This document shows positions 56,100-58,252 of a stretch of 64,000 bases of DNA, in pieces (positions within the stretch are counted from its first letter, which is position 1; each line of letters opens with the position of its first letter). Source of the stretch: the human T2T-CHM13v2.0 reference genome, Homo sapiens; contig CP086569.2 of assembly GCA_009914755.4 (NCBI GenBank), positions 22,144,001 through 22,208,000 on the forward strand. Reading direction: 5' to 3'. The notes under the pieces were generated by a model. That model ran no database searches and had not been told where the DNA came from. It was given only the letters and a program-made list of their open reading frames with translations. The translations under genes were made by a program, and so were the position numbers.

Positions 56100-58205
56100 T
56101 CCTGACAGGCTAGAAAGATGGGAAAATTCCCATTAAGGAAAAAAAGTCTCCAACATAGGGAATCAGGAAATAATCTCCACTCAGGAAAGAGACTAAAAAA
56201 AGGGAACCCAGCCAATGGATTCAAGGAAAACCCCACTCAGAAAGTAGCAAGGAAAAAATATGTTTAGCATAATCAGGGAAAAAAATCTTCATTGAGAATG
56301 ATACCCAACAGGACAATGAAGCCAAAAATGTCAGAGAATGAACCCCTCTTGGAAGGAAGAAGGGTATACAACACAGAACATAAAGCAATAATCCCAAACA
56401 TGAAGCAAAGCTGATAAAAAAAAGTTCCAGATTTGTAAATCAGGAAACAATTTCTAGTCAGATTAGAGAGCAAAGCAAGAGAGACTTGCAACCCCAGGGA
56501 GTCAGAGAATAATCATAAAAAAAAAGACAACCTGGGAAAAGAAAATGTCACCCTAGGAGACAGGGAATAATACCCAATAAAGAAAAAAAGCCAGGAAGAT
56601 GAGATTTCCAAATAATGTATCAGGAAATAATCCTCAGAAAATTGGAATAATCTGTAATAAGGGAAAAAAAGTTCAGAAAAACAAAAGAAGAAAATGTTCA
56701 TCTCTGGAGTCAGACAGTAATCCCTAGTAAGGGAAACACCAGGAGGAAAATACTTTTTGCACATTAGGAATAAATGTCGCTGGGGAAAGAGAGAGCCTAT
56801 AAGAAGGAACTTCTACCTAAGAAAGTTACAATAATCATTATTATTTTTTAAAGAGATAGAAAGAAGGATTTAAAACAAAGTCAGGGTATAATCCCCATCA
56901 GGGAATAGAGTCAGAAAGAAGAATTTTGAGCCCAAATGTCAGAGAAAAATTTCAAATCAGGAAAAAGAGTCAGGGGTGGCAAACTTCTATCCCAGGGAGC
57001 CAGGAAATAATCTTCAATCATGAAAAGAAGTAGAAAAACACTCTTTCACCAGAGAGCTTATTTAATATTTATCTCAGAGAAAAGAACAAAGGAAAAAAAA
57101 GAGGTTCAGTCCAAGGATTCAGAGAATAATACCAGTTTAGGCAGGGAACCAAGAAGAAGTGACTTTGAACTCAGAATCACATGAGAATTATTCTCACTTA
57201 GGAGAGAGAGACAATCAAGTAGTCAGAAAATTTTACCCGTTACCAAAGAGACAAGAAAGAAGAGATATCATATGCCAGAGAGTCAGAAAAGAGAGCTAAT
57301 AAGAAGTGACTTACAGCTCAGGGTGCCAGGGAATAAATTCCATTTGATAAGAGAGCCAGGAGGAATGTATTTCAAAGCAAGAAGTGAGAGAATAATTTTT
57401 ACTCAAGGAAGAGGTCTGGAAAGACATGATGTCCAATCAGGAAAATAATTTCTCTTACGAAACAGAGCCAGGAAAAACAGGTTTTCACTCCAGGAGTCAG
57501 AAAATTTCTACACAGGGAATAGAGACAGGAATTTTTTTTTTTCCTGCTCAGCAAAGAAGTCCAGAAATTTCCAAACCAGGAGTCCAGTCAAAAATCTTCA
57601 GAAAAACAATCAAAAACAAGAATTTTCTACCACAGGAGGCACAGAATACCTCACATTGAAGTAAAATAGCCAGAAAAAAGAGTACTATCCCAGAAATCCG
57701 GGAATAATTTATATTCAGATAAGACATCCCCTAAAAAAAAACTTCTGTCTTGTAAAGTCTGGGATTAGTCACCAATAAAACAACAGCAATGAAAATATAT
57801 GATGTTTACCACAGTCAGAGAATAATCCCTACTAGGTAAGGACAGAAAAGGTAGAAGGGACTTTCACTCCAGGAGTCAAGGAATAATTCCTACCAAGAGA
57901 TGATAGCAAAAAAAGACACTTTAAGCACAGAGAGTTAGGGAATAGTCCCTATTATGAAAACAAAGCAAGAAAAAAGACAAAAAGCTTTTAACCTATGTAG
58001 TAAGAAAATAATTCCCTACTCAGGGATATCAGGAAGTCAGGATTTCCTGACTTAAGCCCAGTGAGGCAGAAAATAATTTCTACTAGCAGGAGAGTCAGGA
58101 AGAATAGATATCCAACCTACATGCAAGGAAATGGGTTTCCTATTAAGAAAGACAGCAATGAAGAGGAGACTTTCAGATCAGGAGTAAAGGTCGGTCAAAT
58201 GTTCA
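56100..58205 (+). repeat. Degenerate tandem array of about 55-62-bp purine-rich units (about 35 copies, about 2.1 kb), family unknown
   Basis: Recurring unit of the form cagg(g/a)aataat(c/t)cc(c/t)a(c/g)t(a/c)agg(a/g)aa(a/g)ag(a/c)caggaag(a/g)a(t/g)agactttcac(t/c)ccaggagt, e.g. cagagaataatccctactaggtaaggacagaaaaggtagaagggactttcactccaggagt | caaggaataattcctaccaagagatgatagcaaaaaaagacactttaagcacagagagt. Units 20-30% diverged with indels. No long ORF. Confidence 0.7.
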
Positions 58206-58207
<2 letters not shown>

Positions 58208-58239
<32 letters not shown>

Positions 58240-58252
58240 AAAAAACAGTTAA
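58208..58252 (+). repeat. Poly(A) tract (about 45 nt) immediately 3' of the 60-bp array
   Basis: ctaaaaaaaaaaaaaaaaaaaaaaaaaaaaaaaaacaaaaaacag. Confidence 0.95.

What the first reader, a model, noticed from the sequence alone, without database searches (positions are those of the whole stretch)
56100..58252. Unclassified 2.1-kb array of degenerate ~60-bp purine-rich tandem units ending in a 45-nt poly(A), bordered upstream by (GATAGA)n
About 35 head-to-tail units share a core (..caggGAATAATcCCtAcTaAGGaAagAGaCAGGAAGaAtaGACTTTCACTCCAGGAGT..) but differ by 20-30% plus indels, so the array is old and non-coding (no frame is conserved; only short ORFs). The + strand is strongly A+G-rich across the whole array, and the array terminates in a long pure poly(A). 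That combination could indicate a retroposed transcript or the VNTR region of a composite retroelement, rather than a locally expanded minisatellite. I do not recognise the unit as Alu, L1, SVA-VNTR or a named human satellite.
Basis: seen in the sequence. Interest (0 to 1): 0.55.

Follow-up and report, generated by a model that had tools for sequence, protein, structure and literature searches.

The report
Decayed 58-bp minisatellite beside RBMY pseudogene
This is an old, non-coding, mutationally decayed tandem array of about 39 copies of a 58-base unit on a primate (probably human) Y chromosome, downstream of an RBMY pseudogene; its poly(A) lies inside the array, most likely grown in place, and is not a retroposition tail, so the feature is ordinary.

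Summary
The array is real. Tandem Repeats Finder misses it, but shared 6-mers peak at lag 55-59. Wrap-around alignment to a 58-nt consensus scores 410, against 18.6±3.6 in shuffles and ≤17 elsewhere in the window. The core is 56136-58190: about 36 units, 72% identical to the consensus, 58% pairwise, 63.5% purine, all on the + strand.

The retroposition reading fails. The A-run is 31 pure A (38 nt with one C), not 45. It sits inside a unit at the phase where 12 other units carry A6-A9 runs. The phase carries across it, and at least two more units follow, to 58416. There is no polyadenylation signal and no target-site duplication. The array has none of the tested SVA parts.

It is non-coding and has no higher-order repeat, no age gradient and no hairpin covariation. 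Its decay is GC→AT biased.

Context: the window is Y-chromosomal. An intron-containing RBMY pseudogene lies 6 kb upstream on the same strand. The bordering (AGAGAT)n shares two internal landmarks and the 3′ flank of the forensic marker DYS448, but it is diverged, so it is probably a paralogue.

Verdict: a fossil minisatellite with secondary microsatellites. Low interest.

The parts
55978..56094 (+). (AGAGAT)n hexamer microsatellite at the 5' border of the array: 19.2 copies, interrupted, longest pure run 5 copies (56007-56036). It resembles the forensic Y-STR DYS448.
   Evidence: TRF; pure-run count. The DYS448 N42-end motif ATAGAGAAAGAGATAGAGAT matches exactly at 56035-56054. The DYS448 3' flank matches at 56082-56104 with 3 mismatches, 0.01 expected by chance. 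Human sequences are from PMC6010625 supplement and PMC10445670. The tract is not in phase with the 58-nt units.
56136..58190 (+). Core of the degenerate minisatellite: 36 full units, median 58 nt. Consensus: CAGGGAATAATCCCTACTAAGGAAAGAGACAGGAAGAAGAGACTTTCACTCCAGGAGT. A weak partial unit may begin at 56120.
   Evidence: Wrap-around alignment scores 410 vs 18.6±3.6 in shuffles. Lag peak at 55-59 nt. 72% identity to consensus, 58% pairwise, no higher-order repeat. GC→AT decay and no gradient. The partial unit at 56120-56140 scores 13 vs 8.6±1.7 (2/100 shuffles).
58186..58277 (+). The unit that contains the A-run. After the run, the sequence resumes with GACTTTCACaCCAG at the expected unit phase.
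   Evidence: Alignment with the run collapsed. The single path 56136-58274 scores 412.
58208..58245 (+). Mononucleotide microsatellite: (A)31 C (A)6. It lies in the purine core of a unit, not at the end of the array.
   Evidence: TRF; run coordinates. Of the 15 A-runs of 6 or more in the array, 13 fall in consensus columns 17-41, this one included (binomial p=0.0007). No polyadenylation signal upstream.
58305..58416 (+). Two terminal units downstream of the A-run. The last one holds a small (CAAA)4.8 microsatellite at 58386-58405.
   Evidence: Score 20 vs 10.2±2.0; 0/100 shuffles reach it. TRF for the (CAAA)n.
42527..50151 (+). Context, not part of the array: an intron-containing RBMY pseudogene with a single SRGY box, in-frame stops, and one exon split by an Alu. 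It ends about 6 kb upstream of the array on the same strand.
   Evidence: tblastn exon hits. PDB 2fy1 RBMY1A1, E=6.9e-14. Pfam RBM1CTR, E=8.7e-18. Alu target-site duplication.

Best explanation
The feature is a fossil minisatellite. A 58-nt purine-rich unit was amplified locally, by replication slippage or unequal exchange, into roughly 40 head-to-tail copies in the DNA flanking an RBMY-family gene copy on the Y chromosome. Homogenisation then stopped. Each unit decayed independently and neutrally, with GC→AT bias and small indels, until units were about 28% from the consensus and about 42% from each other.

The A-rich centres of the units were raw material for secondary microsatellites. One A-run expanded in place to (A)31, and a (CAAA)n arose in the last unit. 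The (AGAGAT)n tract marks the 5' edge. It is probably a diverged paralogue of the DYS448 hexamer locus in the P3 spacer of Yq11.223, copied along with RBMY-associated sequence.

Shown here: the array, its borders and phase, the internal position of the A-run, the lack of coding potential, the neutral-looking decay, and the RBMY context.

Inferred: the amplification mechanism, the age (older than the Alus nearby), the slippage origin of the A-run, the DYS448 paralogy, and the absence of function.
For: - The array is significant and confined to one locus and one strand in the window.
- Units are equidistant: pairwise identity is 0.57-0.59 at every neighbour distance from 1 to 15, and all permutation p values exceed 0.1.
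- There is no gradient along the array (Spearman 0.07, p=0.68). Consensuses from the two halves agree at 53 of 58 positions.
- Decay spectrum: consensus C and G have changed at 41% and 37% of cells, A at 17%. G→A and C→T are the largest classes. GC fell from 45% in the consensus to 36% now, about the level of neighbouring 2-kb blocks.
- The A-run is internal, in phase, and at the position where other units carry A6-A9 runs.
- The array is non-coding.
- Rfam finds no family at gathering score. One hit at E=0.27 is far below its threshold.
- Pfam finds no family at E≤0.01 for the two array ORFs scanned; one hit at E=0.017 is below its cut-off.
- An RBMY pseudogene lies upstream.
- DYS448 landmarks are present in the hexamer tract.
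- DYS448 lies in the P3 spacer, between the RBMY-bearing teal amplicons (PMC8085532).
Against: - No primate genome or Dfam library was available. I could not show that the unit is absent from named repeat families, nor count its copies on the Y.
- The age estimate assumes the units were identical at birth.
- The link between the hexamer tract and the array is only adjacency; the phase test was negative.
- The DYS448 paralogy rests on about 45 nt of published human sequence outside the pure hexamers.
- Some columns, such as AATAAT, are better kept than others. I attribute this to A/T positions mutating more slowly, but weak constraint is not excluded.
Confidence: 0.8

Rival explanations
1. The block is a retroposed, 5'-truncated copy of a transcript that contained the repeat. 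The A-run would be its L1-templated poly(A) tail.
For: A long, nearly pure A-run on the purine-rich strand. L1 elements are present in the window.
Against: - Unit phase carries across the run, and at least two more units follow it.
- The run shares its phase with 12 other short A-runs.
- No AATAAA or ATTAAA lies upstream.
- No direct repeat of 8 nt or more links the 5' border to the 3' side of the run.
Confidence: 0.04
2. The array is the VNTR of an SVA-like composite retroelement with the layout hexamer repeat, VNTR, poly(A).
For: The order is superficially similar: a hexamer tract, then a VNTR-like array, then an A-run, all on one strand.
Against: - The hexamer is AGAGAT, not CCCTCT.
- There is no Alu-like segment between 54880 and 60366.
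- Units are 58 nt, 36% GC and 72% alike, not GC-rich 35-50-mers.
- The A-run is internal, with no polyadenylation signal and no target-site duplication.
- The window holds only one copy.
The SVA anatomy is from memory.
Confidence: 0.03
3. The array is the decayed remnant of a protein-coding repeat exon, a pseudogene of a repeat-rich protein.
For: Unit lengths near 60 nt could encode 20-residue repeats, and the + strand is rich in codon-like GAA/AAG triplets.
Against: - The median unit is 58 nt, not a multiple of three.
- Each frame has 25-45 stops, and the longest open stretch is no longer than in shuffles.
- Pfam finds no family at E≤0.01 for the array ORFs.
- Two array ORFs are not on record as predicted proteins.
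Confidence: 0.03
4. The array is a functional repeat: a transcribed purine-rich RNA or a DNA platform with about 40 binding modules, for example the GGGAATAATCCC dyad or hairpin, or GAA-rich sites for splicing factors.
For: The unit core contains a small palindrome and a GAAGAA-rich stretch. The array lies on the same strand as an RBMY-family gene copy.
Against: - The palindrome arms do not co-vary: 89 Watson-Crick cells vs 87.7±4.0 after shuffling partners, p=0.42.
- Decay looks neutral and uniform along the array.
- No Rfam family matches.
- The neighbouring gene copy is a pseudogene.
Confidence: 0.05

Closest known systems
Classical minisatellites / VNTRs: tandem units of 10-100 bp in arrays of 0.5-30 kb
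   Same: A head-to-tail array of 58-nt units spanning about 2.3 kb, at a single locus in the window, with strand asymmetry.
   Different: Active human minisatellites are usually GC-rich and homogenised. This one is 36% GC, units are only 58% alike pairwise, and there is no sign of recent turnover. It is a decayed relic that TRF no longer detects.
DYS448, hexanucleotide Y-STR [AGAGAT]a N42 [AGAGAT]b, GRCh38 Y:22,218,923-22,219,078, in the P3 spacer
   Same: - The same hexamer motif.
- The same N42-end landmark, ATAGAGAAAGAGATAGAGAT.
- The same end structure, TAAAGATAGAGAT followed by xAAxTTCCxG.
- A setting in RBMY-associated Y-chromosomal DNA.

   Different: - 3 mismatches in 23 nt of the 3' flank, and a clearly different 5' flank (AAAGAGCTTCAATGAAGATT vs GAGAAGAGACATGGATAA).
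- Shorter, more interrupted hexamer blocks: 5 pure copies at most, against 10+8 in the human allele compared.
So this is not DYS448 itself. It is probably a paralogue.
SVA composite retrotransposon: (CCCTCT)n, Alu-like, VNTR, SINE-R, poly(A)
   Same: The superficial order is hexamer repeat, then VNTR, then A-run.
   Different: The hexamer is different, there is no Alu-like part, the units are AT-rich and degenerate, the A-run is internal, and there is no target-site duplication.
Poly(A) microsatellites born from A-rich sequence by replication slippage
   Same: A pure (A)31 sits at the phase where sister units carry A6-A9 runs.
   Different: Most long human A-runs are retroelement tails. Here the A-rich seed is the purine core of a minisatellite unit.

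Membership tests
Minisatellite | Head-to-tail repetition of a 10-100 bp unit | tested here: met
   58-nt unit. Lag peak at 55-59 nt, z=5.9. Cyclic alignment scores 410 vs 18.6±3.6 in shuffles. 36 full units laid out in register.
Minisatellite | Array of about 0.5-30 kb at one locus, not interspersed | tested here: inconclusive
   The array spans 56136-58416 and is the only copy in the 64-kb window. Genome-wide copy number could not be tested. The metagenome scan gave only chance 18-mer hits.
L1-mediated retrocopy (processed transcript) | Poly(A) tail at the 3' end of the inserted sequence | tested here: not met
   The A-run is inside a unit, the phase carries across it, and at least two more units follow.
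L1-mediated retrocopy (processed transcript) | Target-site duplication flanking the insert | tested here: not met
   No direct repeat of 8 nt or more between 55930-56140 and 58239-58300. The alternative 3' border gave a single 8-mer, which is chance level.
L1-mediated retrocopy (processed transcript) | Polyadenylation signal 10-35 nt upstream of the tail | tested here: not met
   No AATAAA or ATTAAA in 58150-58207.
SVA-type composite retroelement | (CCCTCT)n 5' hexamer, Alu-like region, GC-rich 35-50-bp VNTR | tested here: not met
   The hexamer is AGAGAT. No Alu similarity between 54880 and 60366. Units are 58 nt and 36% GC. The SINE-R part was not tested because no reference sequence was available.
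DYS448 locus itself | [AGAGAT]a N42 [AGAGAT]b with the GRCh38 flanks | tested here: not met
   The motif and two landmarks are shared, but the flanks differ: 3 of 23 positions on the 3' side, and the 5' flank is dissimilar. This indicates homology, not identity.
Named human satellites and Dfam repeat families | Similarity of the consensus unit to a curated repeat model | not testable with these tools
   No Dfam, RepeatMasker or primate genome database was available. Rfam, which covers RNA families only, gave nothing.
Coding tandem repeat | A conserved open reading frame across units | tested here: not met
   25-45 stops per frame. The longest open stretch is 99 aa, against a shuffle mean of 100. 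The median unit is 58 nt.
RBMX/RBMY gene family (the neighbouring pseudogene) | N-terminal RRM plus RBM1CTR domain, with RBMY-specific residues | tested here: met
   PDB 2fy1 RBMY1A1 is the best hit at E=6.9e-14, ahead of RBMX. Pfam RBM1CTR scores 64.5 bits against a cut-off of 22. In-frame stops make it a pseudogene.

The most novel reading that the evidence does not exclude
The hexamer-plus-58-mer array may be a conserved module carried by RBMY-family repeat units on the Y. DYS448 would be one copy and this locus another. It might be transcribed in testis into a purine-rich RNA with about 40 GAA-rich modules that bind splicing regulators which partner with RBMY, such as Tra2-beta. That would make it a Y-linked repeat RNA rather than junk. 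Nothing here supports function: decay looks neutral and the palindrome does not co-vary. But transcription and cross-copy conservation could not be tested.
Probability: 0.03. Interest if true: 0.55.

Novelty: new member of a known kind. Interest (0 to 1): 0.12.

Why it matters
It matters little biologically. It is a neutral relic of a tandem expansion.

Three modest points are useful:
- It shows that a long A-run next to a repeat block need not be a retroposition tail. Phase analysis can tell the two apart.
- Default TRF misses tandem arrays whose units are less than about 70% alike, so decayed minisatellites of this kind may go unannotated.
- If the DYS448 paralogy holds, it dates the DYS448 hexamer tract to before the duplication that separated the two RBMY-associated copies. 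It also flags a potential cross-mapping locus for sequence-based Y-STR typing.

Tried and rejected
- TRF at minimum score 30 finds no ~60-nt period. I treated this as a sensitivity limit and replaced it with lag statistics and cyclic alignment.
- Iterative nhmmer shrank the model to 40 nt and found only 17 partial hits. A log-odds cyclic profile ran away across the whole test region. I dropped both for fixed +1/-1/-2 scoring calibrated on shuffles.
- A higher-order repeat, suggested by the lag peak at 375-379 nt, is not supported. No neighbour distance from 1 to 15 is enriched.
- A hairpin or dyad at GGGAATAATCCC is not supported. The arms do not co-vary, p=0.42.
- Extension of the array upstream of the hexamer tract is not significant, p≈0.4-0.5.
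- Derivation of the hexamer tract from a unit core is not supported. There is no phase continuity.
- Exact look-ups of two array ORFs in public assemblies found nothing.
- The metagenome scan for the conserved 18-mer returned 22 loci. All are chance matches: wrap scores are 17-22 and none has BLAST similarity to the window. The viral scan returned nothing.
- Searches for the DYS448 primers as I remembered them, and for longer human flanks, found nothing in the paper library or in two supplements. The primer resemblance is therefore not used as evidence.

Full report
**1. What is there**

Read directly, the region 56.1-58.4 kb is purine-rich and visibly repetitive. Tandem Repeats Finder, even at minimum score 30, reports only the (TAGAGA)n tract at 55978-56094, the A-run at 58208-58245, a small (CAAA)n at 58386-58405, and an unrelated 13-mer. 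It reports no ~60-nt period.

That is a sensitivity limit. A histogram of distances between shared 6-mers peaks at 55-59 nt (20 pairs against 4.5 expected from dinucleotide shuffles, z=5.9), with blurred harmonics near 112, 172, 230 and 377.

I aligned the sequence to a cyclic 58-nt consensus, CAGGGAATAATCCCTACTAAGGAAAGAGACAGGAAGAAGAGACTTTCACTCCAGGAGT. The score is 410, against 18.6±3.6 for shuffles of the same region and at most 17 for any other 2.5-kb block of the window on either strand.

The alignment lays out 36 full units between 56136 and 58190. Median length is 58 nt and mean identity to the consensus is 72%. Composition is A 43%, G 20%, C 16%, T 20%, which gives 63.5% purine.

**2. 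The borders, and why the poly(A) is not a tail**

The A-run is 31 pure A (58208-58238), or 38 nt counting 'C AAAAAA'. It is not 45 nt.

Three results place it inside the array:
- With the run collapsed, the unit that holds it aligns in register, and GACTTTCACaCCAG appears just after the run at the expected phase.
- Two further units lie at 58305-58416. They score 20 against 10.2±2.0, and none of 100 shuffles reaches that.
- Of the 15 A-runs of six or more in the array, 13 fall in the purine core of the unit (consensus columns 17-41, which is 43% of the unit; binomial p=0.0007). The (A)31 is one of the 13.

Sister units carry A6-A9 runs at the same phase. Replication slippage from such a seed is the simplest origin for the long run.

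No AATAAA or ATTAAA lies in the 58 nt upstream of the run. No direct repeat of 8 nt or more links the 5' border to the 3' side of the run.

Upstream of the hexamer tract there is no significant unit-like sequence (p≈0.4-0.5). The hexamer tract itself is not in unit phase: the score stays at 64 however many hexamers are kept, the same as with random left flanks. So the hexamer tract marks the 5' edge, and nothing shows that it derives from a unit.

**3. Nature of the array**

It is non-coding. Each of the six frames has 25-45 stops in 685 codons. The longest open stretch is 99 aa, no longer than in shuffles (mean 100). The median unit length is not a multiple of three. The two array ORFs scanned match no Pfam family at E≤0.01; the one hit at E=0.017 is below its cut-off. 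Rfam finds nothing at gathering score in the window, and only one sub-threshold hit at E=0.27 in a permissive search of the array.

Units are equidistant. Pairwise identity is 0.57-0.59 at every neighbour distance from 1 to 15, with no permutation p below 0.1. So there is no higher-order repeat and no local homogenisation. Identity to the consensus shows no trend along the array (Spearman 0.07, p=0.68). Consensuses built from the two halves agree at 53 of 58 positions.

The substitution spectrum is what neutral decay in a mammalian genome gives. Consensus C and G have changed at 41% and 37% of cells, T at 26% and A at 17%. G→A (104) and C→T (68) are the largest classes. GC has fallen from 45% in the consensus to 36% now, about the level of neighbouring 2-kb blocks.

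Raw divergence from the consensus is 0.28, and K2P is 0.35. This suggests amplification before the Alu insertions nearby, provided the units were alike at birth, which I cannot show.

The small palindrome in the unit core (GGGAATAATCCC, GGAATAATTCC, AGAAATAATTTCT) looked like covariation by eye. It is not: 89 Watson-Crick cells against 87.7±4.0 when partners are shuffled (p=0.42).

**4. Context**

The window is primate DNA. It has low CpG and about 20 Alu copies. It also holds L1 endonuclease and reverse-transcriptase fragments at 10.5-12 kb and 16.6-18.4 kb, and an ERV reverse-transcriptase fragment at 31.8-32.2 kb.

Together with CCCGGCTAAAAC, these are, from memory, the AluYa5 diagnostic positions, and AluYa5 is an essentially human-specific subfamily. 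The window is therefore probably human.

Six-frame translation turned up RBMY-like exons. A tblastn probe with my remembered RBMY1A1 sequence gave collinear hits on the + strand from 42527 (MVEAD…) to 50151 (…SRY). The hits contain in-frame stops and only one SRGY box.

Curated resources confirm the identification:
- The best solved-structure match of the first exon is human RBMY1A1 (2fy1, E=6.9e-14), ahead of RBMX.
- The C-terminal part hits Pfam RBM1CTR at 64.5 bits, against a cut-off of 22.

One exon is split by an Alu flanked by a 16-bp target-site duplication. So the array lies about 6 kb downstream of an RBMY pseudogene, on the same strand, in Y-chromosomal DNA. From memory, a single SRGY box is a property of the RBMY2-type pseudogene subfamily. 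I could not check this.

**5. The hexamer tract and DYS448**

(AGAGAT)n is the motif of the forensic Y-STR DYS448, [AGAGAT]a N42 [AGAGAT]b, at GRCh38 Y:22,218,923-22,219,078 (PMC7376188). Published human alleles with short flanks are in the PMC6010625 supplement and PMC10445670.

They share three things with the window:
- The N42-end motif ATAGAGAAAGAGATAGAGAT matches exactly at 56035-56054.
- A second hexamer block follows it.
- The 3' end structure TAAAGATAGAGATAAATTTCCAG matches at 56082-56104 with three mismatches. It is the only such match in the window, with 0.01 expected by chance.

The 5' flank differs clearly, and the hexamer blocks here are shorter and more interrupted. So this locus is not DYS448, but it is very likely homologous to it.

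DYS448 lies in the P3 spacer, between the teal amplicons that carry RBMY1 copies (PMC8085532). That fits a paralogous relationship within RBMY-associated sequence. I could not obtain the human sequence 3' of DYS448, so I do not know whether a homologous 58-mer array follows it.

**6. Explanation and rivals**

The best explanation is a locally amplified minisatellite that stopped turning over and decayed neutrally. Its A-rich unit cores later seeded secondary microsatellites. It lies in RBMY-flanking Y DNA (confidence about 0.8).

- Retroposed transcript. The internal, in-phase A-run and the lack of a polyadenylation signal and target-site duplication argue against it (confidence about 0.04).
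- SVA-like composite element. It fails every part I could test: hexamer motif, Alu-like segment, GC-rich VNTR, terminal tail, target-site duplication (about 0.03).
- Decayed coding repeat. The stops and the 58-nt unit argue against it (about 0.03).
- Functional repeat, either RNA or a binding platform. No supporting signal was found, but it cannot be excluded without expression and cross-species data (about 0.05).

**7. What could not be done**

No primate genome, Dfam or RepeatMasker resource was available. Copy number on the Y, membership in a named repeat family, orthologues and transcription all remain untested.

The one metagenome scan returned 22 loci, all chance matches. The viral scan found nothing. 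Exact ORF look-ups also found nothing.

**8. Verdict**

The interesting interpretation is not. The feature is an ordinary, previously undescribed (as far as I can tell) fossil minisatellite. Interest is low (0.12), and novelty is 'new member of a known kind'.

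Noticed in passing
window 42527-50151 (+): An intron-containing RBMY pseudogene with a single SRGY box and several in-frame stops. Its residues are intermediate between RBMY1 and RBMX, which suggests an early-diverged RBMY subfamily. It places the window on the Y chromosome.
   Followed up: yes
window 45536-45857: An Alu (45555-45844, + strand) is inserted inside an RBMY pseudogene exon. It is flanked by a 16-bp target-site duplication, AAAAAATCTGCTCCTT, at 45536 and 45842, so the peptide KKSAPS appears twice.
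   Followed up: yes
window 24433-24718 (-): A young Alu, 98% identical to the consensus. Its differences (G145A, C174T, G237C, plus CCCGGCTAAAAC) match the AluYa5 diagnostic set as I remember it. It has a target-site duplication, AATAATTTTTCA, and an A/TAA-rich tail. This suggests the window is human.
   Followed up: partly
window 55978-56104: The hexamer tract shares the N42-end motif and the 3' flank of the forensic marker DYS448, but it is diverged. It is a probable DYS448 paralogue and could attract mis-mapped reads in sequence-based Y-STR typing.
   Followed up: partly
window 10562-12034 and 16627-18414 (+): Two L1 ORF2 fragments, with endonuclease and reverse-transcriptase Pfam hits. They may be parts of one interrupted element.
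   Followed up: partly
window 31772-32179 (+) and 34683-35374: An ERV-type reverse-transcriptase ORF fragment. About 3 kb downstream lies a GC-rich block (GC 0.47) with many overlapping ORFs on both strands. It could be an LTR or a CpG-rich element.
   Followed up: no
window 57532-57542: A T11 run inside the otherwise purine-rich array, in a stretch (57498-57584) where two units are badly degraded.
   Followed up: no
window 56100-58207: The strongest single lag bin for shared 6-mers is 375-379 nt (z=7.4). No higher-order repeat shows up in unit-to-unit identities, so it is probably a few chance long matches at about 6.5-7 unit spacings.
   Followed up: partly
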